DNA of 64,000 nt from an uncultured bacterium (lineage in GTDB: Bacteria; Zixibacteria; MSB-5A5; UBA10806): the NCBI GenBank assembly GCA_965541585.1, contig CBEUCH010000001.1, forward strand, positions 352,001-416,000, read 5' to 3'. The notes beneath the pieces were generated by a model. The model did no database searches. It had not been told where the DNA came from and saw only the letters and a list, made by a program, of their open reading frames with translations. Made by a program: the position numbers and the translations under genes. This document shows positions 4,430 through 23,119 of this stretch, piece by piece (the first letter of the stretch is position 1; each line of letters opens with the position of its first letter).

Positions 4430-4435
4430 AACCGT

Positions 4436-5726: not shown

Positions 5727-6209
5727 TTATACAAACGATTTCAATATCTCCCTCTGCAACCCGACCAATTCCGAATTCGCCTCGCTGATTTCATCGATCT
5801 TCTGCTGGAGCTTCTTGAGGAGATTTTGCCTTTCCATGCCGTTACGAAGGATAATCAGGAGATCATCGTTATCCCACGGTTTTTCGAGGTATTGAAACAG
5901 GCCCACTTCGTTGATGGCCTTGATTGCGTTTTCCTTATCGGCGTAACCGGTGAGAATTATGCGTGGGACGTCCGGTCGTATCTCCCTGACTTTAGCCAGG
6001 AAGCTGATACCGTCCATTTCCGGCATAAGATAGTCGGAAATTACGATATCAATATCGTTTTTCTTTATGAATTCAAGCGCCGCTTCGGCGGATGTGAAAG
6101 TTTCGATTTTGAGACTCGTCTCGAGATTCAGAAATGACCTTAAGCTGGTCAGAACCATTTCCTCGTCATCGACCAGCACAATTGTTGAATTCGATTGAAC
6201 GACTGACAC
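5727..6209 (-). CDS. Response regulator: receiver domain plus C-terminal coiled coil
   Basis: VLVDDE, SDYLMPEMDG (phospho-Asp), ILTG and LEKPW motifs. Confidence 0.92.
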   Translation of the reverse strand: MSVVQSNSTIVLVDDEEMVLTSLRSFLNLETSLKIETFTSAEAALEFIKKNDIDIVISDYLMPEMDGISFLAKVREIRPDVPRIILTGYADKENAIKAINEVGLFQYLEKPWDNDDLLIILRNGMERQNLLKKLQQKIDEISEANSELVGLQREILKSFV

Positions 6210-6370
6210 TTTTCTCTCCTGTTTTAAATCTACTATCCCTCAGGCAAGTTGCAATGCCTGGAAAATAACCGGGACTGCAGACGCCTGGCTTTTTCTACGG
6301 CGACAATGATCATGCTCTCCGGGCATGGTTCCCGTCGTTTCCGAACGCCCGGATTGTATACGGAACCACT

Positions 6371-6820
6371 CTAAGAACTGTTTCGATCTACCGGTCTTGA
6401 TCCCACTCTCTCCAGAAGACTTCTCAAGCGTTTGACCAGCGTTTTCATAACTCCTTGCGTGATTCGGACGTTATCTCCCAGCAGGTCAATGAAATCTTCT
6501 TTCTGGATTCGCAGTAGCTGACTATCCTCCATAGCCGTTGCCGTAACGACCCTCGGGTCATCATCGAATAATGCCCACGTTCCAAAAATGTCTTTGTGGG
6601 TGCCGATCATAACATCGGAACCGTCTCGAATCAGCCTGATCCTGCCATCAATGATCATATACATACAATCCGATATGTCTCCTTCCTTAAAGATTACATT
6701 GCCCTTTTCAAATTCTATTTCCTCGGTAATGGCGGCGATTTGAGCCAGGTCTTCGGTCGATGTGAATCCGAATATATCAACATCCTGCAGAAACAACACT
6801 TTTTCTATCGTGGTCAGCAT
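6371..6820 (-). CDS. Stand-alone cyclic nucleotide-binding domain protein
   Basis: IFKEGD..MYMIIDGRI..FG..ALFDDDPRVVTATA cNMP signature, no HTH. The N terminus (EKVLFLQDVDIF) resembles the cNMP tails of NTT-HEAT proteins. Confidence 0.88.
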   Translation of the reverse strand: MLTTIEKVLFLQDVDIFGFTSTEDLAQIAAITEEIEFEKGNVIFKEGDISDCMYMIIDGRIRLIRDGSDVMIGTHKDIFGTWALFDDDPRVVTATAMEDSQLLRIQKEDFIDLLGDNVRITQGVMKTLVKRLRSLLERVGSRPVDRNSS

Positions 6821-6893
6821 TGAATCAGACTATTCCGAAATTCGGTCTCGGGATTGCTATCTATCCAATTTCCTGGTTTTGAAGTCATTTTCA

Positions 6894-9725
6894 TTAATCT
6901 GCCAGATTGAGCTTAATTGCAGCATATCTGGCAGTCTCGGCGATAACCCGGTCTGCGGCATTGCCCAGTTCACGGAGGGTCCCGGCGAAACGCCTGTTTT
7001 CCTGCTCAGCGATAAGATACAATGTGCATACGATAAGCCAGCGGACATTGCTCTTCAGAAGCATATAGAGCCCTTCGTCAGTTGATTTTAGGCTGAAGCC
7101 CCAGAGGCGCTCGGTATGTTTGAGCAATGACCGGATCAAAACAGTTTCCACAATCGGGATTATATATTTTTTTAGGTCGGAATCAAGAATATTATCGAGA
7201 AATTCTACGGCGTCGGCCCTGAGGCCGGGCTTTTCGCTGGTTATCCCCAGATACGCATTATAGATATCCCGGGAATAGTAGTTAAGGCTCAAGAGACGAA
7301 ACATCCTCTCCATGCTCCGTGCGAGGCTTTCATGCAGCGCTCTGGTGATGAGGCGTCTGGCCTGTTTGCCGCTGCGCTCGCCGCCAATCCGCGTCGGAAT
7401 CAGGCGATGGGCACGGCGGTCGAATCTGTAGAGAACGGCATTCAGTTTGTAGTAATTTTCGGCCTCCGCCAGAATACTCCTTTCGATAAGCTGAGAATCC
7501 AGCTTCAACATCGGGTAGTGTTCCCTTAGCTTGTTCAGACCCCTTATGGTTTCATAGCGAAGAGTCAAATCCTTGTGCGTTAAATTCTCATACAAGGTAT
7601 TGACCGCCCTTTTTGAGCCAATAAGGGCCAGGACCTTCGGTATCCTGGTTCTTACCCGCATGTTTTCGTCCGGATCATTGTAGCGTTCCATCAAAGGATC
7701 GATGACTTTATCGCCGTATTCAGCCAGGGATTCGCGAACATCTATGGCCACTGCACGAGTACCGAGGTGGGATATCAGAATCGGAATGAACTCTTCTGAT
7801 CGAGTTTCGCCGGCGCTTATCACGGCCGCCTTCAGGATTTCCGTGGACTCATCGCCCAGCAATCTTATCAGAGTAGCATTCAACTTCGGAATTTTGACCA
7901 TCCCCATAATTTTTGCAATATTTAACTTCAAAAGCCTGCTCTGTTTGTCGGAAGGTCCTGACCATTCGATTCGGTCGACCAGTTCTTTAATCAATCTTTC
8001 CAGTTCGATTATGTTGCCAAACGGTTTGCCTTCTTTTACCGCCAGGGCGGCGCAGATCAGGGCTGATGTCTTGACTTCGATGCTGGATTGAGACAGAAAT
8101 TCCCGAAAAGTTGACTCGGGGTCATCTGAATGCATGCAGATATAGCTTATCGCCTCTATCCTGACATCCTGGCTACCATCCGCAATGAGCGATCTGGCCT
8201 CTGTGGTGAAATCCTCGGTTTCATAATGAGAGATCATCCCGAGAACCCGGGCCTTGATTTCTGCTGACGGGTGTTGGAGCAGTCTTTTCAGATGCGGCAG
8301 CAATAAGTCATTTCTTGTGTCTTCGAAAAGATTTAAGACATACAGGATCTGCCTTTCGTTAACGCTGTCCAGCACCCTCAACAGACTCTTTACTGTTGAG
8401 GAGTCGGTCCCGCTCAACGACAGTTCATCGATGTCTATCGTTCGTTTCTCAATGGCACGGCGAAATGAATTGACGTATTCCTTTTTCATTTTCATTATAA
8501 TGAATATCCAGAAGCAGATCAGTGCAATAATGAAAAGACTCACGTACCTAATTGGAAGATTTATGCCGGTTATCAGGGCAATTAATAACAGGCCTCCCAA
8601 ACCCATGGCCAGACTATCTATGAAAACATCGACGATACTCTTTGCCTGATTTTTCACCAGCGCCGGGACCGGAATTGAAAGCAATTCCATGCCTGCTTTA
8701 TTCACTGATTGCTTGAGGCTACCCTCGGTGACTTTGATAAATACTGCCGACCAGAGAGCCGGGCTGAAAAGACTACCCAGGGCTCCTAAGAAAACGCCGG
8801 CCGGCAAAAAGAAGAGGGCCCGGGCAGTGCCCATCGATTTGAGAATTCTGCCGGTCAAAAGTAATTGGATGATAAGAGCCAATATGCTCAGATTCGAGAG
8901 CCAGAAACCGAAAAAGGCGGTGAGTTGATCCTGATCGGGAATCTCGCTTGAGGCTAATGCGCTGAATTGGAAATCAACCAGGCTGGCCACGATTACACCG
9001 ACGCCCACCATTGCGGCGGTCAAAGCAAGATGCCTCGATCTGGTAAATAGCCTTATGGGATTGCCAGTTTCAAACGATTGCTTCATTCGCCTTTGAGCCT
9101 GAATCCTCTCCCGAAAACTATGTTTTCCGCCACTTTGCCAGATAACTGACATTAATATGAGACTGGATATCATAAAACCGATGGCGAAAAATAAGAGATT
9201 CGAAGTCTCGAGAAGAGGGGCTAAATAGCTGGTAAGATACCCACCGAAGATACCGCCCGAGATCGCTCCGGCGCCTATCAGGCCAAATAGCCTTTTTGCT
9301 TCACGGGCGTTAAATACATAATTTGCCAGAAGCCAGAATTGGGTTGTGGATATGACTCCGAAGATCGAAACCCATATATAGAACAGATAAAGAAACCAGG
9401 CTGCCGTCATATTGAGATATAAGAAATACCAGATGACCAGGAGATTAAAGACAACGATTAGCAGGGTGGCCGAAATCAGGTAATTGAGGCGAACTTTTCT
9501 GGAAAGTCGCCAGTATAGCGATACTACAATTCCTGATGCGATAGATACCATGATGAAAGCATATGGAAGCTGTTTTACGCCAAGATAAGTAAGAAAAAGG
9601 GAATTGCGAACCGGCTTTAAAATCATCAACGACGCGATAACAAAGAAAATATAGGCAAACATCAGGGAGACCCTGAAACCCTCGCCCTCTCGAATGCCAA
9701 ACAATTTTTCGAAAAGTGTCTTCAT
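6894..9725 (-). CDS. NTT/TLC (ATP/ADP translocase family) MFS carrier fused to a HEAT-repeat domain
   Basis: About 12 hydrophobic segments with ILKPVRNSLFL, QFWLLANYVFNAREAKRLFGLIG and VDFQF motifs, then ~500 aa of helical HEAT-like repeats. Start taken at MKTLF; the ORF extends to 9749. Confidence 0.85.
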   Translation of the reverse strand: MKTLFEKLFGIREGEGFRVSLMFAYIFFVIASLMILKPVRNSLFLTYLGVKQLPYAFIMVSIASGIVVSLYWRLSRKVRLNYLISATLLIVVFNLLVIWYFLYLNMTAAWFLYLFYIWVSIFGVISTTQFWLLANYVFNAREAKRLFGLIGAGAISGGIFGGYLTSYLAPLLETSNLLFFAIGFMISSLILMSVIWQSGGKHSFRERIQAQRRMKQSFETGNPIRLFTRSRHLALTAAMVGVGVIVASLVDFQFSALASSEIPDQDQLTAFFGFWLSNLSILALIIQLLLTGRILKSMGTARALFFLPAGVFLGALGSLFSPALWSAVFIKVTEGSLKQSVNKAGMELLSIPVPALVKNQAKSIVDVFIDSLAMGLGGLLLIALITGINLPIRYVSLFIIALICFWIFIIMKMKKEYVNSFRRAIEKRTIDIDELSLSGTDSSTVKSLLRVLDSVNERQILYVLNLFEDTRNDLLLPHLKRLLQHPSAEIKARVLGMISHYETEDFTTEARSLIADGSQDVRIEAISYICMHSDDPESTFREFLSQSSIEVKTSALICAALAVKEGKPFGNIIELERLIKELVDRIEWSGPSDKQSRLLKLNIAKIMGMVKIPKLNATLIRLLGDESTEILKAAVISAGETRSEEFIPILISHLGTRAVAIDVRESLAEYGDKVIDPLMERYNDPDENMRVRTRIPKVLALIGSKRAVNTLYENLTHKDLTLRYETIRGLNKLREHYPMLKLDSQLIERSILAEAENYYKLNAVLYRFDRRAHRLIPTRIGGERSGKQARRLITRALHESLARSMERMFRLLSLNYYSRDIYNAYLGITSEKPGLRADAVEFLDNILDSDLKKYIIPIVETVLIRSLLKHTERLWGFSLKSTDEGLYMLLKSNVRWLIVCTLYLIAEQENRRFAGTLRELGNAADRVIAETARYAAIKLNLAD

Positions 9726-9814
9726 AATGACTGGATTGGCAAGATACAAGAATGAGCGCTAATAATAAAGATGGAAATCGCCGGATAAAACGTTCGGATC
9801 GGAATGCCAGTCCT

Positions 9815-11143
9815 TTATTCTATTGGCCTTTCGGTCGTTTTTGTCCGGAATTGATTTCCTGCGTAACGAACCGCAATAATCCAGATTAGCACGACAGCGG
9901 CTGTTCCCAGTGACAGCCAGCGGATACTGGAGAATTCGGTAAAAATCGACGTGATCGCCAGGCTCACCCCGACGGCGATAACCTTGGCAAACCTCTGCAC
10001 AAACATATCTATGAAGGCCTTGGCCTTATACTTCTCGTCGCGGCTGGTGGGAACATAAAGCGTTTCCTTGGCCGATTGATTTATGGAGTAGGAGAAGCCG
10101 TTGTCTGCAGTGTTCAAGAAGCTACCCATCCATAGAATGGGCATCGCCATAAAACCGGCAGAGCCGACCAGGATTGCTACCGGCAGAATCATTAAGGCCG
10201 TTTTTACCCCAAATCTGGTCATTATGAAGCTTGTGAGGAAAAGCTGCACCAGCAGCGAGACCCAATTTGTAATCGAGAAAACGGTTGAGAATTGTTTCCC
10301 AATGGCAGGGCCGTCCAGATAATGTTCGATGGTGGCGGTGAACTGAAAATCCATCATAGTGGAGACGATCTCATATAAGCCCACGATGGCGACTATGGAG
10401 AGCAAATACCGGGAGTTAAAAACCAACCTGGCGCCCTCGATAGCGGGATTGCCTGCCTGTTTCTTAGCATCATCTTTCGGTTTTGGGTGCTCCGGAGGAG
10501 GGTTCTTTTTTACAAGGCTGCCCGCAATAGCGGCAATGGCAGTTATCAACAAGGCGAAACCAACACAAATCCATAACCAGTATGCCAGGGAAACCTGCTC
10601 GATCCAGATCCTGACAAAAGTGCTGCCGAATACGCCGCCGGTTACACCTCCCAGGCCTACCAGTCCGTAAAGACGCCTGGCTGATTCAGGGGTGACGCTG
10701 TCATTCAAGAACGCAAAAAACGTACCCACCATCAGGGTGCTGAAAAGATCGCCAAATAGATAGAACGACCATACAGTTATGTCGCCGGGGTTATTCGCTG
10801 CCAATAATATATAGGCGAAATATCCGAAAATGAAGAATCCTGAAAAAATAAATGTTAGTTGCTGCCTGCGGAACCTGCGGGCCAGGTAAGTGAATACTGC
10901 CACTGCAAAGAAGGCGACGACCATGTTGAGCACCTTTGCCAGGAGCTCAGCCTGCGAACCTCTCAGGTGCCACGATAACAGGTCGAAACCGGTTTGATCG
11001 TAGAATTGGATGAAGAGAGATTTTTTAATCGGCTTGAGAATCCAGAAGCTGGTAATTACCAGGAAGAAATAAGAGAACATCAGAAGTGATAAAGGCAGTT
11101 CCTCTCGCCTGATGTTCATTATTGCTCTCAGCGGATTTGCCAT
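9815..11143 (-). CDS. NTT/TLC family nucleotide transporter (stand-alone MFS domain)
   Basis: ILKPIKKSLF, FFAFLND..ARRLYGLVG, MDFQF and YSINQSAKETLYVP..KYKAKAFID motifs typical of Npt1/Npt2-like carriers. Confidence 0.85.
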   Translation of the reverse strand: MANPLRAIMNIRREELPLSLLMFSYFFLVITSFWILKPIKKSLFIQFYDQTGFDLLSWHLRGSQAELLAKVLNMVVAFFAVAVFTYLARRFRRQQLTFIFSGFFIFGYFAYILLAANNPGDITVWSFYLFGDLFSTLMVGTFFAFLNDSVTPESARRLYGLVGLGGVTGGVFGSTFVRIWIEQVSLAYWLWICVGFALLITAIAAIAGSLVKKNPPPEHPKPKDDAKKQAGNPAIEGARLVFNSRYLLSIVAIVGLYEIVSTMMDFQFTATIEHYLDGPAIGKQFSTVFSITNWVSLLVQLFLTSFIMTRFGVKTALMILPVAILVGSAGFMAMPILWMGSFLNTADNGFSYSINQSAKETLYVPTSRDEKYKAKAFIDMFVQRFAKVIAVGVSLAITSIFTEFSSIRWLSLGTAAVVLIWIIAVRYAGNQFRTKTTERPIE

Positions 11144-11249
11144 TATTGGCCTCGCAAACTGCTGAATTCTGTCTGAATTTGTTTAAAAAGACAGGGCATA
11201 TCGATAATCCGAAAAGAAATTATAGCATATTCCGTCAGGGCTTTCACAA

Positions 11250-12509
11250 TTATCTGTCGATAATCCGGAATTCATCGATCAACGGATCAGCCAATATTGA
11301 ATCGCCGGTTGCCTCGAATATCTTTACTGAAAGAACATCTTCATAGATATTTACCAGACTGTAATGATATTCTTGCAGCTGCTTTAGCTGTCTGACGTTT
11401 AAACCCTTAGCCTCGAAATCCTGTGCATATGAATTCAGGGCTTCGGAATCCGCTATCGGCATCAATGGAGCACCGCCTCCGCCGCCGACAATGAAATGAA
11501 TTTCTTGGCCTGGTGTTGCGGCGGAGCTATCGGCATACAGGACGTTGTGCTGGTAGAAATGATCGTGCCCTGAAAAAACCAGACGGACGCCATATTCTTC
11601 GAAGAGGTCTATTAATTTTCCGCGCTTGTTCAGCAGGTCTCTGCCATTGGATTTCTGATGCCAATCGTTATGATGTCTTCCAAAAGAGATGGGCGGCTGG
11701 TGTATGGCGACTATCTTAAAGGGCACGTTGCGGGATGAAAGTTGCTTTTCCAACCACGATGGTTTGTCATCATCGGGATCGGAGACGAACCATTTTTTGA
11801 AAAGCTCATCCTGCAGGTCATCATCGATATGACCCTTCTGGTCGAGGATGAAGTTGGCATCGACTACGAATAGCGCCCCGTCGGGGAAATCGATCACATA
11901 AAATCGAGGATATTGGAATATTGCCTGATAGTTTTTTAAGCCGAAGGTTGTGTCGTTAGCCCTTTCATGATTGCCGATTGCCGGGACGAAAGGGATCTCG
12001 TTCAGCAGGGGATGCTCAACCTTATTCATGTTCAAAAAACGGACCCAGTGCTCAGGTCGCCTGCCATCGTGAGCACAGATATCTCCGGTATTTAGAATAA
12101 AATCGACCTTGTTGCTCGTAGCGGCATGGTAAATAGCATCACGTACCATACGTTGCTCGTTAGCGGCATAATCAGGTTTGTGCCTGAACCAGTTAATCCC
12201 GCCAATGACGCCATTACCAAGCCAGTAGAGCTCGTAGAAAGGGAAGATTAGCATTTTCCAGGTTGCCCAATTATCTTTCCGGATAAATCTTTCGTAAGCG
12301 CGCCAGCCGGCCTGGTTGTCACTGTATACGAGAAACGTGGGATTTTCCCGGAGGGGCTCGTCGGCCAACAGTTTCGGTACCCGATAAAAGCTCTCGGGAT
12401 ATTTTTCAGAGATAAGTCCCACACGGGCGCAGTTGAAACTCAACATAAAAGACAGCAACACTATAAAGATAGTGATTCGAGAAGGAATATTGTGCTTTTG
12501 GCTTATCAC
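11250..12509 (-). CDS. Exported calcineurin-like metallophosphoesterase (purple acid phosphatase-like)
   Basis: Motifs SDNQ, GDIC, GNHE, HQPP and GHDH. N-terminal hydrophobic signal ending SFNC (possible lipoprotein). Confidence 0.88.
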   Translation of the reverse strand: MISQKHNIPSRITIFIVLLSFMLSFNCARVGLISEKYPESFYRVPKLLADEPLRENPTFLVYSDNQAGWRAYERFIRKDNWATWKMLIFPFYELYWLGNGVIGGINWFRHKPDYAANEQRMVRDAIYHAATSNKVDFILNTGDICAHDGRRPEHWVRFLNMNKVEHPLLNEIPFVPAIGNHERANDTTFGLKNYQAIFQYPRFYVIDFPDGALFVVDANFILDQKGHIDDDLQDELFKKWFVSDPDDDKPSWLEKQLSSRNVPFKIVAIHQPPISFGRHHNDWHQKSNGRDLLNKRGKLIDLFEEYGVRLVFSGHDHFYQHNVLYADSSAATPGQEIHFIVGGGGGAPLMPIADSEALNSYAQDFEAKGLNVRQLKQLQEYHYSLVNIYEDVLSVKIFEATGDSILADPLIDEFRIIDR

Positions 12510-12519
12510 CTATTGAAGC

Positions 12520-14238
12520 TCATTCCTGGCGTCTCAGGCCTATTAGAGTGTATTCGCCCGAGATTATATCATACTGAAGGTAGACCTTTACCCATCTGCT
12601 CCATTTTCCGTTCCCGTTCCGCTCGACCCTCAGGGCGAATTCCAGCTGATAGTTCTCGTCAGTGGGAAGGTCACCAGGTATCTCAATAGACGTTGAATTT
12701 CCAAGATCTTTATCTTTTCTGAATATTTCTCCATTGATTCTCAGATCATAACGGTACCTGGCCAGGTTTTTTGATTCGAGATTTCTATCAACGGCGAGAT
12801 CGACGAAACTGAGCTTCTGCGCGCCTTCCGGATCTTTATCCAGCTCGAAATAGTCAAGCGGATTAACTTTAGAAAACCAGTGGCGTCCGATAATATCCCT
12901 GCGTTGCTTCAAAGTCTCCAGCAGATAAGCCTCTGCCTCGGGATCGCTGTATTTCCCCTGCCTGGCGACGGTTTCAAGTTGCTCATCGGTAAACGACGTG
13001 ACAAGCTTTGCGCCCCAGTAACCGTCGAGATCAGTCATCAGGTCGAATGCTGGATTCGGTATATTGCTCTTGAACTTGCCTGGTTCGAAGAAATCCGATT
13101 TATAGCGACCGATTGAAGTGAATTGAAAATCGGTGTCTTTTTCCCATCCTTCCACGTTTAAGCCCAGGCTGAGAGTATTTTCCATAATATCCCTGGGATC
13201 GAACTGGTTCACGAATCCTGCCTCCGGTGAAAATGGACTATGAGCGGCGCTTCCCAGAGTCGAACCGAAATCGATGAGAAAATGCCTGACATAGCTTTTG
13301 CCATTCTCAGTTACGTAGGAATCGAGGGAGTTCCCGTCTTTGGTATCGGTGTGCTTGAGCCAGGCGCTCATCACCTTCAAGCCGCGCAATTCCCTGCGAT
13401 GCTGGTGTGGTATGAGATCATTCGGATCATCTTCTCTGAAGCCCTGGTATCTGAACGGCCCGATTGGTGTACCGGGGACGTATTTGCTGGCCAGGGCACG
13501 TATGCGGCCGTCCGGAAGAATTTCGATCTTTTTCAAAATCCTTTCCAGATCCTCCCCGGTCATAAAAGCCTTATGGCCCTTCTCATCTATGAATTTAACA
13601 TCCCCTTCCAGTCTCAGAATATCCGGATGAAAATAGACAAGGTAGTTTTCAGGCGTGTTATATCCGGCGGCATAGAACAGCTTGGTCGAGATGACCTCGG
13701 CGCCGGTCGCGAGTTCGGAATATCCTTTCGGGTCGAATTTTATCAAATACATTTCGCCCTTGGTATCCCTTATGGTGAACCCGGGTGTTACTCCCTCCAG
13801 CTTGGCCCGTATGATTGTCCAGACACCGTTGACTTCGGGGCCGCTTCCTTCGTTGGGCCCTCCGGCAATATCCTCCAGGTTTAGACGTTTTATTGCATTT
13901 CTATTCGTGAACCAGCTGGAATTGTCAACCTCATCAAACGAATTAAGGTTTAAAGCCTGTTTCGGCCGTCCCGCCAGATGTCTTAGCTGACGGGAGAAAT
14001 CCAGAGATTCTCTTACCTGCTGGAACGCAACCTTGTCTATAACATCGTATATAAGAGGGATTTTTCTCGATTCGGGCTGGCGAGGAACGTGTTTGGTGTC
14101 ATCGGGTATCGCGGGCGAGGGAACAAATAGATTCCGGCCGGAGCAGCCGGAGAAAATACCGAAAGCAACCAGCACCAAAATCGATGCAGTGATAGGAGAC
14201 GAGAATATGTGGTGAGATTTTAAATCCGTCTTAGCCAT
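12520..14238 (-). CDS. Predicted lipoprotein with protein-kinase-like (PKL) catalytic motifs
   Basis: Signal peptide with FSGC lipobox. In order: EGVTPG loop, YLIKFD (beta3 Lys), AEV (alphaC Glu), HTDTKDGN (DxKxxN catalytic loop), IDFG (Mg-binding). Confidence 0.75.
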   Translation of the reverse strand: MAKTDLKSHHIFSSPITASILVLVAFGIFSGCSGRNLFVPSPAIPDDTKHVPRQPESRKIPLIYDVIDKVAFQQVRESLDFSRQLRHLAGRPKQALNLNSFDEVDNSSWFTNRNAIKRLNLEDIAGGPNEGSGPEVNGVWTIIRAKLEGVTPGFTIRDTKGEMYLIKFDPKGYSELATGAEVISTKLFYAAGYNTPENYLVYFHPDILRLEGDVKFIDEKGHKAFMTGEDLERILKKIEILPDGRIRALASKYVPGTPIGPFRYQGFREDDPNDLIPHQHRRELRGLKVMSAWLKHTDTKDGNSLDSYVTENGKSYVRHFLIDFGSTLGSAAHSPFSPEAGFVNQFDPRDIMENTLSLGLNVEGWEKDTDFQFTSIGRYKSDFFEPGKFKSNIPNPAFDLMTDLDGYWGAKLVTSFTDEQLETVARQGKYSDPEAEAYLLETLKQRRDIIGRHWFSKVNPLDYFELDKDPEGAQKLSFVDLAVDRNLESKNLARYRYDLRINGEIFRKDKDLGNSTSIEIPGDLPTDENYQLEFALRVERNGNGKWSRWVKVYLQYDIISGEYTLIGLRRQE

Positions 14239-14256
14239 CGATTCAGTCTATCATTC

Positions 14257-15537
14257 TTAGTTAAGGTCAAGGTGGATACGGACAAGGTCGCGACTCTTGC
14301 CGGCCTGTAATGTTACCAGGTTGCCGTCCCGCTTCCAGATACGAATTCCGCCCCCGAACGTAACTTCGAAGTCATCGCCGGAAATATGGTCGAATATGTC
14401 GGGCGCGACCTGACCGGCATCAACAAACACAAAAGCGTCCAGATTCCGGGGCATTATGGGGTAACGATACTCTACGGAGCCGATCATGCTGTCGCGATCC
14501 CGGAATCGTCCCCGTTTTAATCCTCGAATCGTTTCCGTTCTTCCGATTTCACTCATGTGATAAAACGGGATTTCTTTGCCGGATATCGGCTCTGATTTCC
14601 GGGCGGCAAAACGCACCACGAGATACCGGCCATAGAATAGATGGATGTAACGAGCGATGTCCGCTGTGGCTGCAAAAAAGCCGTACCGGTCGCCCCCGGT
14701 CTGGCGAAAGGCTTCTCCGGAGAACTCAATTTCCCAACCACCGGTGGGTTTCCCGGGGTGATTTCTGGAATCGTAATGAATCGAAAGCCCTGCGCCATAT
14801 AGCTCGACGCCGGTCTCCAATCCCGGCAATGAGCTGCCGAATTGGACGGTTGTGGATGGAGTACTTGAGTCCTTTCCCTTCAAAATGCTGTTTCGTTCAT
14901 AGAAAATAGAAATATCCGCTGCCGCTTTTCCCCCAAATCTCCTTCCGAGGGAAAGTCCCGCCCTCACCTGCTCAAATGCAAAATTGGTTTCGTCATCTTT
15001 GCCGGTACTCATTCCGATTCCATAGAATGCCTCATCAGGCATAAGGGTATATTGAGTTGTCAGACCGGCCTCCAGGGCTCCGTCCGCAATATCAATTCTT
15101 CTCAAGCGAAACCTGTATCGTTGTCGCCATCTCAATCCTGCAGTTGCCGCCAGATCGAGTCTTGACTGATCGGAGATAAGACCCTTTTGATAATATTTCA
15201 ACCCGCCACCGGAACGGGATGCGTATTTTGGTACGAGCCCCCTGCTGCCGTCATCGGCGACCATGAAATCTGCCAATTCCACAACAAACGGGACCTCAAA
15301 ACTGATTCCGGTGACGAGATCTACACCTTTGAGTACAATATGGAAAGGCAAATAGAGCAATTTCCCCGGCGCCGAGACGATTCTTTCCCAGGTCGAATGA
15401 CCTGGAAATCTATCAGGGTGGTTTTCTGTCGCATTTGTATCGGGCGGCGATTGTGGATCGACCCGTTCCGAGAGCGCCTGTTCGGAAACTATAGGAGCAA
15501 ACGCAAGCAGAAGAGAAATGGAGATTATTTTTTTCAC
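14257..15537 (-). CDS. Omp85/BamA-TamA family outer-membrane beta-barrel, no obvious POTRA domains
   Basis: Signal peptide (VKKIISISLLLAFA), amphipathic beta strands, and Omp85 hallmarks YDSRN, TIRGL (VRGF-like), SVEYRYPI, FVDAGQV and GGGIR. GTG start chosen; the ORF extends to 15594. Confidence 0.82.
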   Translation of the reverse strand: MKKIISISLLLAFAPIVSEQALSERVDPQSPPDTNATENHPDRFPGHSTWERIVSAPGKLLYLPFHIVLKGVDLVTGISFEVPFVVELADFMVADDGSRGLVPKYASRSGGGLKYYQKGLISDQSRLDLAATAGLRWRQRYRFRLRRIDIADGALEAGLTTQYTLMPDEAFYGIGMSTGKDDETNFAFEQVRAGLSLGRRFGGKAAADISIFYERNSILKGKDSSTPSTTVQFGSSLPGLETGVELYGAGLSIHYDSRNHPGKPTGGWEIEFSGEAFRQTGGDRYGFFAATADIARYIHLFYGRYLVVRFAARKSEPISGKEIPFYHMSEIGRTETIRGLKRGRFRDRDSMIGSVEYRYPIMPRNLDAFVFVDAGQVAPDIFDHISGDDFEVTFGGGIRIWKRDGNLVTLQAGKSRDLVRIHLDLN

Positions 15538-15744
15538 TTTCTTAAGATCCTGTTTTCCTGAATTCTTCCAAAATGTAAATAAGCACGATGGCAACGCGAT
15601 CTGATTACGCTACCGTGCTCGCTTTATTGAATTGTAAAACCAATATAGTCGAGTCCTGGTTCCTTCAGACATCTCAGATGCCCGAACTTCTCGCGGCTGT
15701 GCTGAATAGAGTCCATAAGCTGTCTCCTGCCTTTCAGGCGACAA

Positions 15745-15773
15745 ATTATATCTAAGTCGCTTCCAAAGGTCAA
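15745..15773 (-). promoter_or_regulatory. Sigma70-type promoter upstream of the Omp85-kinase-phosphoesterase-NTT genes
   Basis: The minus strand reads TTGACC-N17-TATAAT. Confidence 0.65.
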
Positions 15774-15853
15774 TTTGGATTTCTGGCTTTATCTAAATGC
15801 AGATCAAACTATAATTCAGTTGATTATGAACACGGTTTCATTCCGGCAAGAGG

Positions 15854-16834
15854 CTAAAACTCGAAATGAATCGCGACGCCAATAGCATCTCCTTTTATCA
15901 TAGGAACAGTAACCAGGTTTGTCTTTCTATTTTCATGTAGCTTTATGACTGCGCTGGAAACAGCTATGCCGTAGATGGCGGCGATATAGACGTCGGATGG
16001 CCAGTGCGAATCCGATGTCACCCTCTGGAAAGCCACGGTTGTAGCGAGACCATAAAGAGTGAGCGTTGCCGGCCGGAATCTCAAGTGATGGGACAAAACA
16101 GTGGCCACCTGGAATATCGATGAGGCATGACCGGATGGAAACGACGTGCCCTTGTTGAACTCGAAGTTTCGCGGCCCCCTGCCATCGTGAGGGCGAGTCC
16201 GACCGACAACGATATTGGCCAGGTTTTTGACTCCACCCGCAATGAAATGAGATTCGAGGATTTGAGCCGATATTTCCATCAGAGGTCTGATTCTGAAAAC
16301 GTATCCGATTGCGAGGCCGCCAAAATAATACTTGTTGGTGTTACCCATCATGCCAATCGGTTCGAAAGTCTGGCCGATTCTTCTAAACGGCTTGTATAGT
16401 CTATCGTCCTGGTTGCGCTTTAGCCCGTCATAAATTTCCTGATCGTAGGCATAGAGTATTCCCGCTGTAGCCGTAAATGCTGTCAGCCAGTATGCGTCAC
16501 GCCGGCTTATCCTGGCGGGCGAGGAATAGATATGCCAGCTATCGGATAGATATATCTTTCCCATGTTGCCGAGATCCCGAAGCAAATGGCGTTTATTCTC
16601 GATTATCTGTTGCTCTTCCGCGCCGTTATCGTCAGAATATTGGCTGCTCATAAAGAGTAATTCCAGAGATCTCGTATATATGAACGGCGTCTCGGGGTAT
16701 ACACTGCTATATAGACGCGTAGGGAAAATCATTGAGTTTCTCCTGGCTTTCGATTCCTCAGCGATTGATTGCGAAATGCAAGATGTTGGCATTACAAGCA
16801 AGATTAATAAGACGCAGAACTTCTTATAATTCAT
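15854..16834 (-). CDS. PAP2-family phosphatase with N-terminal signal/lipoprotein-like leader
   Basis: C1 KNLANIVVGRTRP, C2 FPSGH and C3 RVTSDSHWPSD. Start taken at MNYKKF; the ORF extends to 16885. Confidence 0.88.
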   Translation of the reverse strand: MNYKKFCVLLILLVMPTSCISQSIAEESKARRNSMIFPTRLYSSVYPETPFIYTRSLELLFMSSQYSDDNGAEEQQIIENKRHLLRDLGNMGKIYLSDSWHIYSSPARISRRDAYWLTAFTATAGILYAYDQEIYDGLKRNQDDRLYKPFRRIGQTFEPIGMMGNTNKYYFGGLAIGYVFRIRPLMEISAQILESHFIAGGVKNLANIVVGRTRPHDGRGPRNFEFNKGTSFPSGHASSIFQVATVLSHHLRFRPATLTLYGLATTVAFQRVTSDSHWPSDVYIAAIYGIAVSSAVIKLHENRKTNLVTVPMIKGDAIGVAIHFEF

Positions 16835-16874
16835 ATGATCACTGTATTTATCAATGAATATTGGCGTTAAACGA

Positions 16875-19800
16875 TTACTTGTCATCTTCTACGGAATTTT
16901 CGCCCAGATCCATCGGCAAAATAATCGTAAATGTGGTTCCCCTTCCGACCTCGCTTTCCACCTTGATTTCGCCTCTGTGATCCTGGATTATCTGATAGCA
17001 AATGGAAAGCCCCAGCCCCGTGCCCACGCCGACGCCTTTGGTGGTGAAACCCGGATCGAAAACCCGCTTTAAATGTTCTGCAGATATGCCCGTACCATTG
17101 TCCTGAATTTCGATGAATACACTCTTGCCTTCTCTGTGGGTGGCTATTTTAATCTCGCCTTTATCCTTTATTGCCTGACTGGCGTTTACCAGCAGGTTTA
17201 GAAACACTTGATTGAGCGGTCCGGGATAGCAGGGAATAGGCGGGATATCGCCATAGTTCTTGATCACCACGGCCTTATGTTTTAATTCGTGGTGAATGAT
17301 GGTGAGAGTGTCTTCAAGCCCCTCGTGGATATCGGTTTTCTTCAGTTCGGCTTCGTCCAGTCGGGCAAAGCTTCTCAAGCGACGGACTATATTGGTTACT
17401 CTATCGGTGCCGGATTCGATGACCTTGTTGGCATCATCGATGATTCTGAGAATAGACTGCAGCTCCTGGTTTTGCTCGTACTGTTCCGATAAATTCGATC
17501 TGAGGATACCTTTGAGTTTTCGAGTAGAGCGGACGAGTGTATCGTGCATGCTGTTGACCGCACCAATTGGGGTATTGATTTCGTGTGCGATACCGGCTAC
17601 CAGCAGGCCCAGTGATGCCATTTTTTCGGATTGAATAAGCTGAATCTGGGTCTCTTTTAGGTGCTTATTGGCTTGAGCGAGATCTTCCAGGACCTTCATT
17701 TTTTCGGTGATATCATGGGCAACGCCGATGTAGGAAACCACATTTCCGTTCTCGTCTTTAAGCGGTGATGCACTTGACGTATGCCACCTCCAGCTTCCAT
17801 CCTTGTGCTTTACGCGGTATTCTATACCGCTCATGGTTTCACCAGCCATAACCTTCTCGAAGTAATCCATACAGGCCTGCAAGTCGTCCGGATGGACGAA
17901 CAGTGCAAAGGACGATCCCTGAACCTCTGAAACATCGTGCCCCAGTATGGAGGTCCAGTTGGGTGGGACATAAGAAAACACTCCCTCGGGTGTGAGAGAA
18001 TAGATGATATCGTTAGCTTTTTCCACCAGATTTCTGAACCGCTCCTCGCTGGCCTGAAGCGCTTCTTCAGCCCTTTTGCGTTTAGAGATGTCGCGTCCCA
18101 TTCCCGCAAAACAGATCAATTCTCCGGAATCGTCATAAATAGGAAAGAGGGACAGATCGATATCGATATTATCGCCCTTCTTATTGTGAATTTTTATCTC
18201 GCCTCGAAATGAATCCTTTTTGGCTATCGCCTCATCAACGGCCGCGAGACTTTCATCGCAAATGAACTCGGCGAGGGATTTGCCATATAATTCGTCATCG
18301 GAAAATCCGCTATATTGCCTGTGTGCGGGATTTCGCTCTATTATTTTGCCATCGGGATCTATAAGGGTGATGCCATCGCTTGTGTGCATGAAAATCTCTT
18401 TGTAGAGTTTGAGCTTTTCTTCAGCCTCCCTTTGCTCTGTGACATCTATGCCACTTGCGATTATATATTCTACATCGCCATCGTCATTTGTAAGGGCGGT
18501 ATTGGACCAGGCGATGAGCCTTCTGGAACCGTCTTTGGTCAGCCAATAATTTTCATGGGTATTTGGGAAATGGCCGGCCTTGAGACTCTTAAATATATTC
18601 CTTACCTGCTCCAACTCTTCGGCGATTAAGAATAAATCCCAGACATGTTTGCCCCTTACCTCGTCGAATCTATAGCCCGTTGTATCCTGGCAAGCCTGAT
18701 TGAACTGAACGATGCATCCATCCGAATCGAGAACCACCACCAGAGCGCCTGCCGTATCCAGTACGGCGCTGACGAAATTGCGCTCCCAGCGGAGCGCTTC
18801 TTCCATCTGTTTTCTTTGATGAATATCATGGATGCCCCCGATGATAGATGGTTCTCCGCCCATTTCAGCTATTACCAGCGAGAATATGGCCCAGAATACA
18901 GTACCATCCAGCTTCTTCAATCGGACCTCAAAGTTTTTAAGATAGCCATCCCTTTGCAGTCTCTCGATCACGGTCTTTCTATCATCAGGATCATAATAGA
19001 AATCCGGTGACTTCCTGCCGATCAAATCTTTCGCGGTGGTCCCGATCAGCTGTCCCAGATGCTCGTTTGCGTACATTATCTCCCCATCGCCGAGCCGGGT
19101 AATGATCAATGGTACGGGTGAAGCTTCAATTATGGTATGTATCTGTTCTTCTGCCTTTTTCAGCCCCGTTACATCGGAGAATATCCATAACCGCCCCAGT
19201 TCCTGGTTGTTTTTATCCAGCACCGGCATGGAAAAAAGCGATATGATTCTGGATTTCGGTTTGGTCAGCAGGAACGATCTTTCTAATATCTTTTTAATCT
19301 CCATGTCATCATCGGATGAATCAGGATTTTCAGTCAACCTCTTACATAATCTTTCAAACCTATCCTGGTCTTTAACCAATCCTTTGATGCGATTAAGGAA
19401 GTCATTGATGTTGGTGTTAAATATCTTCTCTGTTTCGATGCCGAAATAATCCCTGGTGTAGCGGTTTCCGGCAGTAATTTTGCCCTCATTGTTAGCCATG
19501 AGTATAACGTTGGGGGATGAATCGAGGATGGCCTGCAATTCGTCTCTGCCTTTTGAAAGATCTTCGAGAAGCCTGCCCATCTGTAGATTTTTTTCTTCGA
19601 GTTGTTCCTGGATTGCCAGAAGATCGATATTGGCGCGGGCCAGTTCTATTGTGTTGCTTTCCAACTGCCTGGTTCTATCCGTAAGTTTTACGTTGGCTTC
19701 CTTTAAGGACTTCGTCCTCTCGATCACTTTTCTATCGAGCGATTGATATACCCTGATGTTATCCAGCGCCATTCCCACCATGTTGGCAAAAGTTTCAAAG

Positions 19801-21077
19801 CGGGTTTTATCCTGGGCGTCCATTTCACGCCTGTGATGCTGCATATTTCCTATGATAAGGCCGATCGGTTTATTTTCTGCCCTGATGGGACTTATGATGA
19901 CCGACTTGGTGCGGATGATTTTCTTCCCGCCCCGCGGCCATAAAGGATCGGTATTAAGATCTGGAATAAAGATCGTTTCGTTTTTTTCGATGCTTTTCCT
20001 GAAGTGCGGGGGAGGATTGGTAGAAAAAGATTTCGAATTCTGGAGAAAGTTGGCAAGAATCCGCGGGGGATCCTTCTCAAAACAGTAGGAGCGAAGGGTA
20101 AATGTTCCGTTCTCGAACAGGACGAGGAAAGCCCGGTCGAAATCCAGTGTATGCGTGAGAAATTCCGGAACCTCATTGAGAAGTTCCTCCTCGTCGAATA
20201 TCCCTGAGAGCCGGCCGGATAACTCGCTTAACGCCTCGAGCTGACGATTGGAGTACTCAAGCCGTGAGGTGCGCTCCTCGACCATCTTTTCCAGCCCGAG
20301 CGAATATTCCTTCAGTCTGGCTTCGAGTCTCTTACGCTCGGTGACGTCGCGCGCGATACCGTCATTTCTGATGACCTGTCCGTCTTCAAAGACCAGGCGG
20401 CGTCTTATCTCGAAATCCTTCACTTCGCCTGACTTTGAAATCATCCGGAATTCAAGCGCTCTTATCTTATCATCCTTGTTGTTGATCGATTTTTTCAATT
20501 TTAGTATTACCGAATCCATGTCCCCAGGGTGGATGAAATCAAATACGGACTTGCCGAGGACTTCGCTCTCTTTGTACTCCAATATTTGCTCTGCAGCCGG
20601 GCTAACGCTCAAAAATACGCCGCCTGGATCGAGAGAATAGACAATATCCGGAACATTGTCCGAAATCATTTTCAGCATCGACTCCGATTGCCGGAGCCGT
20701 CTTTGCATCAGGGTGTTATCATAGGCCTGACGGATGGAGGTGTCTATCTCTCCAATATCTACCGGCTTCAATACAAAATTGAACGCCCCCTGGCTGATTG
20801 TCTTAACAGCTTTTGGAATCGTTCCATGGGCTGTTAGGATAATCACCGGTAATTCCGGGGCGATCTTTTTCGCACGTTTTAAAACGGTCAGTCCGCCCAT
20901 CACCGGCATGTTGAGATCGCAGAGGATTACATCGAACGCGCCCGTTTCCAGAAACTTAAGGCCGCTCTGACCCGATGCTGCAGGCCTGACTGAAAATCCT
21001 CTCGAGCGGAGCTGCTTGCTTAACTCCCGCCGCTGTTTTCCATCATCCTCTATGTACAATACTCTTATTCTATCCAT
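16875..21077 (-). CDS. Cytoplasmic hybrid sensor histidine kinase (REC-PAS-GAF-multiple PAS-HisKA-HATPase)
   Basis: N-terminal receiver (IEDD, DLNMP), repeated PAS/PAC (FIHPGD, FVHPDD, DVTE/DITE), H box AGIAHEINTP, N box NQVFLNLLVNA, and G boxes DNGTGI and GTGLGL. Confidence 0.93.
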   Translation of the reverse strand: MDRIRVLYIEDDGKQRRELSKQLRSRGFSVRPAASGQSGLKFLETGAFDVILCDLNMPVMGGLTVLKRAKKIAPELPVIILTAHGTIPKAVKTISQGAFNFVLKPVDIGEIDTSIRQAYDNTLMQRRLRQSESMLKMISDNVPDIVYSLDPGGVFLSVSPAAEQILEYKESEVLGKSVFDFIHPGDMDSVILKLKKSINNKDDKIRALEFRMISKSGEVKDFEIRRRLVFEDGQVIRNDGIARDVTERKRLEARLKEYSLGLEKMVEERTSRLEYSNRQLEALSELSGRLSGIFDEEELLNEVPEFLTHTLDFDRAFLVLFENGTFTLRSYCFEKDPPRILANFLQNSKSFSTNPPPHFRKSIEKNETIFIPDLNTDPLWPRGGKKIIRTKSVIISPIRAENKPIGLIIGNMQHHRREMDAQDKTRFETFANMVGMALDNIRVYQSLDRKVIERTKSLKEANVKLTDRTRQLESNTIELARANIDLLAIQEQLEEKNLQMGRLLEDLSKGRDELQAILDSSPNVILMANNEGKITAGNRYTRDYFGIETEKIFNTNINDFLNRIKGLVKDQDRFERLCKRLTENPDSSDDDMEIKKILERSFLLTKPKSRIISLFSMPVLDKNNQELGRLWIFSDVTGLKKAEEQIHTIIEASPVPLIITRLGDGEIMYANEHLGQLIGTTAKDLIGRKSPDFYYDPDDRKTVIERLQRDGYLKNFEVRLKKLDGTVFWAIFSLVIAEMGGEPSIIGGIHDIHQRKQMEEALRWERNFVSAVLDTAGALVVVLDSDGCIVQFNQACQDTTGYRFDEVRGKHVWDLFLIAEELEQVRNIFKSLKAGHFPNTHENYWLTKDGSRRLIAWSNTALTNDDGDVEYIIASGIDVTEQREAEEKLKLYKEIFMHTSDGITLIDPDGKIIERNPAHRQYSGFSDDELYGKSLAEFICDESLAAVDEAIAKKDSFRGEIKIHNKKGDNIDIDLSLFPIYDDSGELICFAGMGRDISKRKRAEEALQASEERFRNLVEKANDIIYSLTPEGVFSYVPPNWTSILGHDVSEVQGSSFALFVHPDDLQACMDYFEKVMAGETMSGIEYRVKHKDGSWRWHTSSASPLKDENGNVVSYIGVAHDITEKMKVLEDLAQANKHLKETQIQLIQSEKMASLGLLVAGIAHEINTPIGAVNSMHDTLVRSTRKLKGILRSNLSEQYEQNQELQSILRIIDDANKVIESGTDRVTNIVRRLRSFARLDEAELKKTDIHEGLEDTLTIIHHELKHKAVVIKNYGDIPPIPCYPGPLNQVFLNLLVNASQAIKDKGEIKIATHREGKSVFIEIQDNGTGISAEHLKRVFDPGFTTKGVGVGTGLGLSICYQIIQDHRGEIKVESEVGRGTTFTIILPMDLGENSVEDDK

Positions 21078-21876: not shown

Positions 21877-21945
21877 ACTCAACCTCTTATATCTCCTCTC
21901 AATTCTTGCCAGTTGCCGTTGTCAATGCGGAATGAATTCCCTGAC

Positions 21946-22953: not shown

Positions 22954-22965
22954 AAATGTCCCGTT

Positions 22966-23110: not shown

Positions 23111-23119
23111 GGGGTTTAA

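What the first reader, a model, noticed from the sequence alone, without database searches (positions are those of the whole stretch)
5727..21077. Candidate undescribed system: an extracytoplasmic kinase/phosphatase module with its own ATP/ADP translocases and Omp85 barrel
Seen: nine co-oriented genes encoding a hybrid histidine kinase, a PAP2 phosphatase, an Omp85 barrel, a kinase-like lipoprotein, an exported metallophosphoesterase, an NTT carrier, an NTT-HEAT carrier, a cNMP-binding protein and a receiver protein. Gaps in the core are small (18 nt Omp85-kinase, 10 nt kinase-phosphoesterase) and a near-consensus promoter lies at 15745-15773. Established: NTT/TLC carriers exchange ATP for ADP in Rickettsia, Chlamydia and plastids; NTT-HEAT(-cNMP) homologues in free-living bacteria lack an assigned function; the periplasm is normally considered ATP-free. 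Inference: the NTTs export ATP and recover ADP to fuel the lipoprotein kinase, the two phosphatases reverse or recycle the modification, and the Omp85 protein displays or secretes a partner or admits the substrate. An alternative is a nucleotide/phosphoester scavenging system. I know of no characterised system with this architecture.
Basis: partly seen in the sequence, partly recalled or inferred. Interest (0 to 1): 0.92.

Follow-up and report, generated by a model that had tools for sequence, protein, structure and literature searches.

The report
Outer-membrane kinase module with nucleotide carriers
A conserved gene set in uncultured free-living bacteria joins an outer-membrane barrel and a kinase-shaped protein predicted to face the periplasm with inner-membrane carriers related to ATP/ADP exchangers and a dedicated signalling relay, which suggests, without proof, that these cells send ATP out of the cytoplasm to run phosphorylation in their envelope.

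Summary
The nine genes are real. The lipoprotein folds as an atypical kinase (CtkA/Fam20/PI4K/CotH clan) with intact catalytic residues and is predicted to dock on the periplasmic face of the POTRA-less Omp85 barrel.

Linkage to NTT carriers is tight. In the host phylum, all 38 NTT-bearing genomes lie among the 40 kinase-bearing ones, and 0 of 111 others have an NTT. In a second phylum, 55 of 55 kinase genomes have one.

New here:
- A second, distant kinase fused to its barrel sits between the same carriers in kinase-negative genomes.
- The same domain lies, unrecognised, inside the known 'Metallo-Omp85' proteins (phosphoesterase-kinase-barrel).
- The receiver and histidine-kinase transmitter are dedicated subfamilies; the receiver tracks NTT-HEAT.

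Best reading (about 0.5): regulated ATP export fuels a periplasmic kinase/phosphatase cycle.

Against it:
- Most carriers lack residues that plant NTT1 needs for ATP exchange.
- Bacteroidota fusion loci had no NTT nearby (0 of 5).
- The substrate is unknown, nothing was assayed, and the promoter match is within chance.

I found no description in ten literature searches. This scan noted the module before on other genomes (11 notes seen).

The parts
16875..21077 (-). Hybrid histidine kinase (receiver, PAS array, GAF, HisKA, HATPase). The transmitter belongs to a subfamily tied to this module; sensor parts vary between loci.
   Evidence: transmitter 48-71% identical to most HKs in related loci against at most 32% to paralogues in the own genome; different sensor domains elsewhere
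15854..16885 (-). PAP2 phosphatase with N-terminal hydrophobic segment (alternative ATG at 16834). Accessory member.
   Evidence: PF01569 E 6.5e-17; SFPSGH and RxxxxxHxxxD motifs in the sequence and in relatives; a PAP2 in 19 of 48 wide kinase loci
15745..15773 (-). Sigma-70-like match, 11 of 12; not above chance and not matched in relatives
14257..15594 (-). POTRA-less Omp85 barrel with signal peptide (likely start GTG at 15534, inferred). Predicted docking platform for the kinase.
   Evidence: PF01103; BamA/TamA barrel matches; directly upstream of the kinase in 84 of 88 loci; complex model
12520..14238 (-). Lipoprotein (Cys32) with atypical kinase fold and a C-terminal fibronectin-III-like domain; K167, E181, D298, N303, D323 conserved
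   Evidence: AlphaFold2 pLDDT 91.8; CtkA Z 13.6 (rmsd 4.0, 224 aligned), Fam20C 12.9, PI4KII 12.6, CotH 12.1; conservation
11250..12509 (-). Exported calcineurin-like metallophosphoesterase (possible lipoprotein, Cys27). Accessory member, replaced by other phosphoesterases elsewhere.
   Evidence: PF00149; purple acid phosphatase matches; 4 of 151 genomes with this query; other subfamilies beside the kinase
9815..11143 (-). Single-domain NTT-family carrier; keeps D132, D265 and K387 opposite E245, E385 and K527 of plant NTT1
   Evidence: PF03219; alignments to 9j3j and 9j3n; residue table
6894..9749 (-). NTT-HEAT carrier (likely start ATG at 9725); Ser and Met at the E245 and K527 positions
   Evidence: PF03219 + PF13646; in 36 of 40 kinase-bearing genomes
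6371..6820 (-). Cyclic-nucleotide-binding-like domain, fused to NTT-HEAT in other loci; cassette reads FGTW, not the usual (recalled) FGE
   Evidence: PF00027; fusions in L104 and L142; motif
5727..6209 (-). Stand-alone receiver with a short C-terminal extension and no DNA-binding domain; dedicated subfamily that tracks NTT-HEAT
   Evidence: 46-74% identity across loci; 37 of 151 genomes, 36 of them the NTT-HEAT genomes

Best explanation
A trans-envelope phosphorylation module. (1) The kinase-fold lipoprotein is exported and sits under its own Omp85 barrel on the periplasmic face of the outer membrane. Fold and docking are predicted; localisation is inferred. (2) NTT-family carriers in the inner membrane supply it with a nucleotide, most likely ATP sent out in exchange for ADP plus phosphate. 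This is inferred from co-occurrence and from what plant NTT1 does. (3) Exported phosphatases of several interchangeable kinds remove the phosphate, so kinase plus phosphatase return ADP and Pi, the counter-substrates of an NTT, and export is limited by use (inferred). (4) A dedicated HK-receiver relay, replaced in some lineages by a membrane Ser/Thr kinase, acts on the cytoplasmic HEAT/cNMP-like part of NTT-HEAT and gates the flux. This is inferred from variable sensors, a conserved transmitter and a receiver without a DNA-binding output. The acceptor is unknown. My order: an outer-membrane lipid or lipid-linked glycan; a small molecule that enters through the barrel and is trapped; an envelope protein.
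For: Kinase fold and catalytic residues; Cys32 in 115 of 119 close relatives and 38 of 62 diverse ones; Lgt present. Complex model: score 0.63, best of 3 controls 0.00; the mark was reached by 116 of 157 solved complexes and 2 of 215 mismatched pairs (counts hold only roughly, own alignments used); runs agree in at least 86% of contacts; partner pLDDT at least 87. The barrel contacts are its N-terminal segment and short turns, one of which aligns with a BamA turn I recall as periplasmic. Host phylum: kinase in 40 of 151 genomes, NTT in 38, all within the 40, patchy within families and genera. Second phylum: 55 of 55 kinase genomes have an NTT-family match; 42 of 43 genomes with a strong NTT-HEAT match have the kinase. 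A second kinase lineage fused to its barrel occurs in 13 further genomes, none with the first kinase, and lies between an NTT and an NTT-HEAT in 8 of 8 paired-carrier loci fetched. Metallo-Omp85 = phosphoesterase + kinase fold + barrel in one chain. The host encodes ATP synthase and PurD, so it need not import ATP. NTT1 counter-exchanges ATP for ADP+Pi (PMC3306366, passages).
Against: Similarity to proven ATP/ADP carriers is remote: the window NTT scores 45.7 bits against TIGR-unrelated plant NTT1 and 65.5 bits against a 387.2 cut-off for TIGR00769. Only 8 of 42 plain carriers keep the Asp/Lys pattern; 33 of the other 34 have Asp where NTT1 needs K527; NTT-HEAT has a basic residue there in 22 of 41; at least one carrier has it in only 30 of 63 loci (not de-duplicated). 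20 of 38 host-phylum genomes have NTT-HEAT only. Some NTT homologues move NAD or purine nucleotides, and one failed to transport (PMC5381601). Kinase without any NTT found: G131 and G140 (fragmented), and G120 for the second kinase. NTT-HEAT plus receiver without a kinase found: G260. Five Bacteroidota plasmid loci with the fused kinase have no NTT within 10 kb. No activity, localisation or substrate was measured. Related genomes are not independent.
Confidence: 0.5

Rival explanations
1. Outside-in signalling. The barrel-kinase detects or modifies an external ligand, the carrier senses or imports the product (ADP or a phosphorylated compound), and its HEAT/cNMP-like tail reports to the HK-receiver relay or Ser/Thr kinase. 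The carrier is mainly a transceptor. This can coexist with ATP export.
For: The receiver subfamily follows NTT-HEAT almost exactly: 36 of 36 NTT-HEAT genomes, absent from the two with plain NTT only. A Ser/Thr kinase replaces the relay in 6 of 8 fusion loci where it was scored. NTT-HEAT often lacks NTT1's transport residues.
Against: The HK input domains vary widely (PAS arrays, GAF, 7TM-DISM), unlike a fixed input from the carrier. The receiver has no DNA-binding output. The reading does not itself supply the kinase with a phosphoryl donor.
Confidence: 0.2
2. Scavenging. The barrel admits nucleotides or other phosphoesters, the phosphatases trim them, the carriers import them, and the kinase interconverts or traps them with a scavenged donor.
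For: Diverse exported phosphoesterases recur beside the kinase: calcineurin-like, PAP2, nucleotide pyrophosphatase, alkaline phosphatase (MPE or PAP2 in 30 of 48 wide loci). Characterised NTTs are importers in their hosts (PMC5381601).
Against: The kinase, not the phosphatases, is the constant partner of barrel and carriers. The host makes its own ATP and purines. Omp85 barrels are not known as solute porins (recalled).
Confidence: 0.12
3. The kinase works in the periplasm but uses a donor other than cytoplasmic ATP (polyphosphate, undecaprenyl pyrophosphate, another nucleotide or NAD), and the carriers move that donor or a different metabolite.
For: Fused kinases without neighbouring NTTs in Bacteroidota sit beside an undecaprenyl-diphosphate phosphatase or PAP2 genes. 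A Ppx/GppA gene lies upstream in L070. Most plain carriers have Asp at the K527 position.
Against: The nucleotide-binding residues of the kinase fold are conserved, and its structural neighbours are ATP-using kinases.
Confidence: 0.1
4. Two-partner-secretion-like export. The barrel moves the kinase to the surface, where it acts on other cells or surface polymers, as CtkA or CotH do outside their cells.
For: An Omp85 gene lies directly before an exported enzyme. The top fold matches are secreted kinases.
Against: The barrel has no POTRA domain, and the passenger has no TPS-domain hit and carries a lipid anchor. Predicted docking is on periplasmic turns. A surface enzyme would not explain the linkage to inner-membrane carriers.
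Confidence: 0.08

Closest known systems
NTT-HEAT(-cNBD) clade of nucleotide transport proteins (Major, Embley and Williams 2017, PMC5381601; main text read, supplements not seen)
   Same: NTT fused to HEAT repeats, followed by or fused to a cyclic-nucleotide-binding domain, in free-living bacteria; function unknown.
   Different: The main text names no kinase, Omp85, phosphatase or two-component partner. Here these partners track the carrier across genomes.
'Metallo' and 'noNterm' Omp85 subfamilies (Heinz and Lithgow 2014, PMC4104836, passages; Bettin et al. 2024, PMC11358297, abstract and passages)
   Same: POTRA-less barrel; those papers note that noNterm and Metallo barrels resemble each other. 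A phosphoesterase found beside the kinase in L122 is 37-47% identical to the Metallo N-terminus.
   Different: They treat the PF00149 domain as a metalloprotease, and the word 'kinase' has 0 occurrences in either main text. Here the middle of the fusion folds as a kinase, and the window has barrel, kinase and phosphoesterase as separate genes. The two kinases are related by fold and only weakly by sequence.
Plastid/parasite ATP/ADP translocases (Arabidopsis NTT1, Chlamydia NTT1; PDB 9j3j, 9j3n; PMC3306366, passages)
   Same: Same carrier family; the window NTT keeps residues opposite E245, E385 (E385 recalled as important) and K527.
   Different: Remote similarity, far below the TIGR00769 cut-off; free-living host; proposed direction is export; most relatives lack K527.
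Secreted atypical kinases Fam20C/Fam20B, CotH and CtkA, and the lumenal ATP supply of the eukaryotic secretory pathway (the supply route is recalled)
   Same: Same fold clan; works outside the cytoplasm and needs an ATP supply across a membrane.
   Different: No sequence-level match; lipid anchor, fibronectin-III-like tail and a dedicated outer-membrane barrel; an ePK-like HxDxKxxN loop; substrate class unknown.

Membership tests
NTT/TLC carrier family (PF03219) | Profile match above the curated cut-off and a multi-helix membrane domain | tested here: met
   79 and 42.2 bits against a cut-off of 21; alignment profile hits 9j3n at E 1.3e-30
Proven ATP/ADP translocases (TIGR00769) | Score above the family cut-off | tested here: not met
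   65.5 bits against 387.2 for the plain NTT; no hit listed for NTT-HEAT
Proven ATP/ADP translocases (TIGR00769) | Residues needed by plant NTT1 (K155, E245, K527) | tested here: inconclusive
   Plain NTT has D132 and K387, with K70 near K155 but of uncertain register; NTT-HEAT has Ser and Met
Proven ATP/ADP translocases (TIGR00769) | Measured ATP/ADP+Pi exchange | not testable with these tools
   needs a transport assay
NTT-HEAT(-cNBD) clade | NTT + HEAT repeats with an adjacent or fused cNMP-binding domain | tested here: met
   cNMP gene 73 nt downstream; fusions in L104 and L142. No tree against the published clade was built.
noNterm Omp85 | Omp85 barrel without POTRA or another large N-terminal domain | tested here: met
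   445 aa, PF01103 only, no POTRA hit; BamA/TamA barrel matches
Two-partner secretion (type Vb) | TpsB with POTRA domains and a TpsA with a TPS domain | tested here: not met
   no POTRA hit in the 445-aa barrel and no Pfam hit in the partner; partner folds as kinase + Fn3
Atypical kinase clan (CtkA/Fam20/CotH/PI4K/HipA) | Kinase-like fold | tested here: met
   Z 13.6 to CtkA (rmsd 4.0, 224 aligned), 14 clan members above the first non-kinase row; Foldseek E 1.6e-5 to Fam20
Atypical kinase clan (CtkA/Fam20/CotH/PI4K/HipA) | Conserved catalytic Lys, Asp, Asn and metal-binding Asp | tested here: met
   K167 61/62, D298 62/62, N303 61/62, D323 62/62 in the diverse alignment; roles assigned by motif, recalled
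Atypical kinase clan (CtkA/Fam20/CotH/PI4K/HipA) | Phosphotransfer from ATP to a defined acceptor | not testable with these tools
   needs an assay
Fam20C, CotH or HipA families proper | Sequence match to the family profile | tested here: not met
   no Pfam or NCBIfam hit at E 0.05; Atlas neighbours with these families score under 0.8
Metallo-Omp85 | PF00149 domain fused to an Omp85 barrel in one chain | tested here: not met
   separate genes in the window; the barrel aligns with the Metallo barrel (probability 99.6), the kinases only weakly
Cyclic-nucleotide receptors | Phosphate-binding cassette with Gly-Glu and Arg (recalled) | tested here: inconclusive
   fold family met, but Glu is replaced by Thr, Ala or Val in the relatives displayed while Arg is kept

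The most novel reading that the evidence does not exclude
Many diderm bacteria run a regulated ATP-export line: NTT-family carriers, gated by their own phosphorelay, feed ATP to kinases held under Omp85 barrels. The docked lipoprotein, the kinase-barrel fusions and the widespread Metallo-Omp85 proteins are three forms of one outer-membrane kinase machine that phosphorylates envelope lipids, glycans or proteins in a compartment regarded as ATP-free.
Probability: 0.4. Interest if true: 0.93.

Novelty: categorically new. Interest (0 to 1): 0.82.

Why it matters
The periplasm is generally held to lack ATP (recalled), which is why envelope chemistry is thought to rely on lipid-linked donors or energy relayed from the inner membrane. 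A dedicated ATP supply with its own kinase would be a bacterial counterpart of the eukaryotic secretory-pathway kinases. It would also give testable roles to three orphan groups at once: NTT-HEAT carriers of free-living bacteria, POTRA-less Omp85 barrels, and Metallo-Omp85 proteins. The kinase family is large (3,772 clusters at 50% identity hit by its profile). The fused form occurs in cultured bacteria (named hits), so the idea can be tested without culturing this host.

Tried and rejected
Sequence searches for the kinase in Pfam, NCBIfam and PDB gave nothing significant. The scan of named genomes used a single protein and returned only 4 loci, so named neighbourhoods are few. The search for long fused forms covered 1370-3910 aa and found none; lengths of about 1000-1370 aa were not searched with the kinase. 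No kinase match on plasmids; no fusion relative in viral contigs.

Direct homology of the two kinases by sequence was not established: hhalign probability 43-53% over the C-lobe, signal peptide only, none. The weak second-kinase hit in G279 lies in an elongation-factor-like ORF and was dropped.

The promoter was rejected as within chance. Rfam found only a tRNA in the window. No RNA run holding the stretch was listed, which says nothing about expression. The glycyl-radical genes on one side and the molybdopterin genes on the other did not recur among the clusters of neighbours shown and are not counted as parts.

In the second phylum, 28 genomes have an NTT-profile match without either kinase. 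27 are weak lone matches; the 3 examined had no kinase nearby, and the one scanned hit MFS_1 but not TLC. The other is G260. Two of the 13 second-kinase genomes (G292, G298) have only such weak matches and no carrier in the stretches fetched.

Literature: ten searches found no description of the module. The library lacks most subscription papers; the NTT structure paper I tried by a recalled DOI was not held. Supplements of PMC5381601 and PMC4104836 were not seen and could list neighbours or domains. The lipocone paper (PMC12419801), the Riemerella review (PMC13595192) and PMC13721041 were seen as passages only and did not describe this system.
Full report
1. Observation. Nine co-oriented minus-strand ORFs span 5727-21077. 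The 18- and 10-nt gaps are right; the other gaps are 65-259 nt, with an 11-nt overlap at HK/PAP2. The 11-of-12 promoter match exists, but 23.5% of 200 shuffles give one as good, and three related intergenic regions reach only 9 of 12. The closest named relatives of the kinase are from Zixibacteria. The genome is 98% complete, has one copy of the module, and encodes ATP synthase, PurD and Lgt.

2. The kinase. It has no Pfam or NCBIfam hit and no significant PDB sequence hit. With 119 relatives it folds at pLDDT 91.8. It matches CtkA (Z 13.6, rmsd 4.0, 224 aligned), Fam20C (12.9), Hydra Fam20 (12.8), PI4KII-alpha (12.6) and CotH (12.1), with a fibronectin-III-like domain at about 457-560 (Foldseek agrees). 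K167, D298, N303 and D323 are kept in 61-62 of 62 diverse relatives. Cys32 of the lipobox is kept in 115 of 119 close and 38 of 62 diverse ones; I take the rest to carry ordinary signal peptides. Roles for these residues are assigned by recalled motifs. The profile hits 3,772 clusters at 50% identity. The fold does not tell a protein kinase from a lipid or sugar kinase.

3. Barrel and kinase. Among 112 non-redundant kinase loci, the barrel gene is directly upstream in 84 of the 88 with at least 1 kb upstream. These loci are a biased sample: the best 80 of 511 metagenome matches, 20 of 40 host-phylum genomes, 14 stretches from second-phylum and fragmented genomes, and 4 named loci. The complex model scored 0.63 against a best control of 0.00. 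The mark was reached by 116 of 157 solved complexes and 2 of 215 mismatched pairs (rough, since my own alignments were used). Runs agreed in at least 86% of contacts, and partner pLDDT was at least 87. This supports binding; it does not show it. The barrel side is residues 59-96, before the first strand, plus the short turns 320-323 and 376-389. The first turn aligns with a BamA turn that I recall as periplasmic.

4. Link to the carriers. In 151 genomes of the host phylum the kinase was found in 40 and an NTT-family gene in 38. All 38 lie among the 40, and none among the other 111. The pattern is patchy within families and genera (for example 11 of 55 in one family), and in several genomes carrier and kinase lie on different contigs. 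The exceptions, G131 and G140, are fragmented assemblies with the most divergent kinases. 36 genomes have NTT-HEAT and 18 a plain NTT. In 151 genomes of a second phylum, centred on the Krumholzibacteria record L003, 55 have the kinase and all 55 an NTT match. 41 of the 96 others also match, but 42 of 43 genomes with a match below 1e-100 have the kinase. In 48 wide loci an NTT lay nearby in 36. Named relatives point to Acidobacteriota and Latescibacterota, and to Calditrichia, Poribacteria and KSB1. Kin are not independent, so I give no P-value.

5. A second kinase in the same place. I fetched kinase-negative genomes that had paired carriers. In 8 of 8 loci (L138-141, L172-175) the gene between NTT and NTT-HEAT is a signal-peptide protein of about 850-860 aa: a different kinase-like domain fused to an Omp85 barrel. 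Two are frameshifted and one is inverted, and a membrane Ser/Thr kinase was scored next to it in 6 of the 8. This second kinase occurs in 13 of 151 genomes, none with the first kinase and all with an NTT-profile match, though two only weakly. Other copies sit beside a phosphoesterase of the window's type, a small exported protein and, in one locus, a Ysc84/SYLF protein. These are the same neighbours the first kinase has in L069, L107 and L125. The two forms are therefore interchangeable in context.

6. Metallo-Omp85. A phosphoesterase beside the kinase in L122 is 37-47% identical to the N-terminus of roughly 1,240-aa PF00149+PF01103 proteins of Balneolota and Bacteroidota. This is the 'Metallo' Omp85 subfamily of Heinz and Lithgow (PMC4104836, passages). 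The middle of one such protein folds at pLDDT 93.9 and matches PI4KII-alpha (Z 14.2, rmsd 4.6, 250 aligned), CotH (14.0) and CtkA (12.1); its profile finds the fusions of section 5 at about 1e-115. So phosphoesterase, kinase and barrel occur as one chain, as two, or as three. The two kinases are related by fold and only weakly by sequence. Against obligatory coupling: none of five Bacteroidota plasmid loci has an NTT within 10 kb (a sixth hit was not fetched), their chromosomes were not searched, and G120 has the second kinase without an NTT.

7. What the carriers move. They are NTT-family by profile but remote from proven ATP/ADP exchangers. Plant NTT1 exchanges ATP for ADP+Pi and needs K155, E245 and K527 (PMC3306366, passages). 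By the printed alignment to 9j3j (offset 84), the window's plain NTT has D132 and K387 at the last two positions and D265 at E385. Its NTT-HEAT has Ser, Met and Asp. Over all loci, 8 of 42 plain carriers keep this pattern and 33 of the other 34 have Asp at the K527 position. NTT-HEAT has Lys or Arg there in 22 of 41, and 30 of 63 loci have at least one basic carrier (not de-duplicated, and including four loci without a kinase). ATP is thus plausible for the window's plain NTT and uncertain for the family. Major et al. (PMC5381601, main text read) describe NTT-HEAT-cNBD as uncharacterised and name none of these neighbours.

8. Signalling genes and phosphatases. The receiver is a distinct subfamily (46-74% identity across loci, at most 38% to paralogues). 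It was found in 37 of 151 genomes: the 36 with NTT-HEAT plus one copy with two stops. In the second phylum it was found in 29, of which 28 have the kinase. The HK transmitter is likewise conserved while its sensors vary, and a receiver-SpoIIE protein often joins. I read this as variable signals converging on a receiver that gates the carrier; the reverse direction remains open. Phosphatases are accessory and interchangeable: the window type is in 4 of 151 genomes, and some metallophosphoesterase or PAP2 is in 30 of 48 wide loci.

9. Mechanism and verdict. Shown by computation: gene content, linkage, fold, fusions and a supported docking model. Inferred: periplasmic location, ATP export, a kinase-phosphatase cycle returning ADP+Pi, and gating by the relay (0.5). 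Rivals: outside-in signalling (0.2), scavenging (0.12), a non-ATP donor (0.1), surface secretion (0.08). Ten literature searches found no description, within a library that lacks most subscription papers. The scan's own notes record the module on other genomes (11 notes); they are not independent support. A word search for the fused form returned nothing. The parts belong to known families, but the system matches no known kind. Interest 0.82.

Noticed in passing
P0289 and relatives; L158, L159, L161: Metallo-Omp85 proteins of Balneolota and Bacteroidota hold an unannotated kinase-fold domain between the phosphoesterase and the barrel.
   Followed up: yes
L158:5804-13570: In Fulvitalea the phosphoesterase-kinase-barrel gene lies beside a 'Pycsar system effector family' gene and an adenylate/guanylate cyclase gene, hinting at a nucleotide-signalling context without an NTT.
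   Followed up: no
L160:9887-12346: A Parabacteroides distasonis plasmid record has an 821-aa protein matching the second kinase and the C-terminal part of the fusion, without the phosphoesterase, annotated hypothetical; the form reaches gut Bacteroidales.
   Followed up: partly
L165-L167, L069, L107, L125: A small exported protein with no Pfam hit and a Ysc84/SYLF protein recur with a phosphoesterase beside both kinase types.
   Followed up: partly
L037:8093-9364 and 8 other host-phylum loci: A 423-aa exported protein with no Pfam hit recurs with a second PAP2 subfamily just downstream of the kinase (9 and 17 loci).
   Followed up: no
L142:7295-13123 (G260): NTT-HEAT-cNMP fusion with HK, receiver-SpoIIE and receiver, but neither kinase was found in that genome.
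   Followed up: partly
L143-L145: A lone NTT-like MFS subfamily lies in a conserved context unrelated to the kinase, next to what look like tyrosine-catabolism and chemotaxis genes (read from sequence starts, not scanned).
   Followed up: no
L062, L122, L129, L133: Duplicated barrel-kinase pairs or tandem kinases within one locus.
   Followed up: no
window 2069-5263: Glycyl-radical enzyme (PFL-like) with its radical-SAM activase directly downstream of the module; substrate not determined.
   Followed up: no
window 21370-29884: MobB, MoaA, a TorD-like chaperone, a molybdopterin oxidoreductase, an Fe-S subunit and two unannotated proteins with signal-peptide-like N-termini (27249-28391, 28667-29884).
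   Followed up: no
window 30198-31874: 558-aa protein with a weak GlpX-type fructose-bisphosphatase match (E 7.2e-7).
   Followed up: no
window 41579-63386: Acyl-CoA synthetase, thiolase, 2-hydroxyacyl-CoA dehydratase subunits, acyl-CoA dehydrogenase and Fe-S flavoproteins, resembling an anaerobic acyl-CoA degradation cluster.
   Followed up: no
window 793-864: tRNA gene (Rfam RF00005).
   Followed up: no
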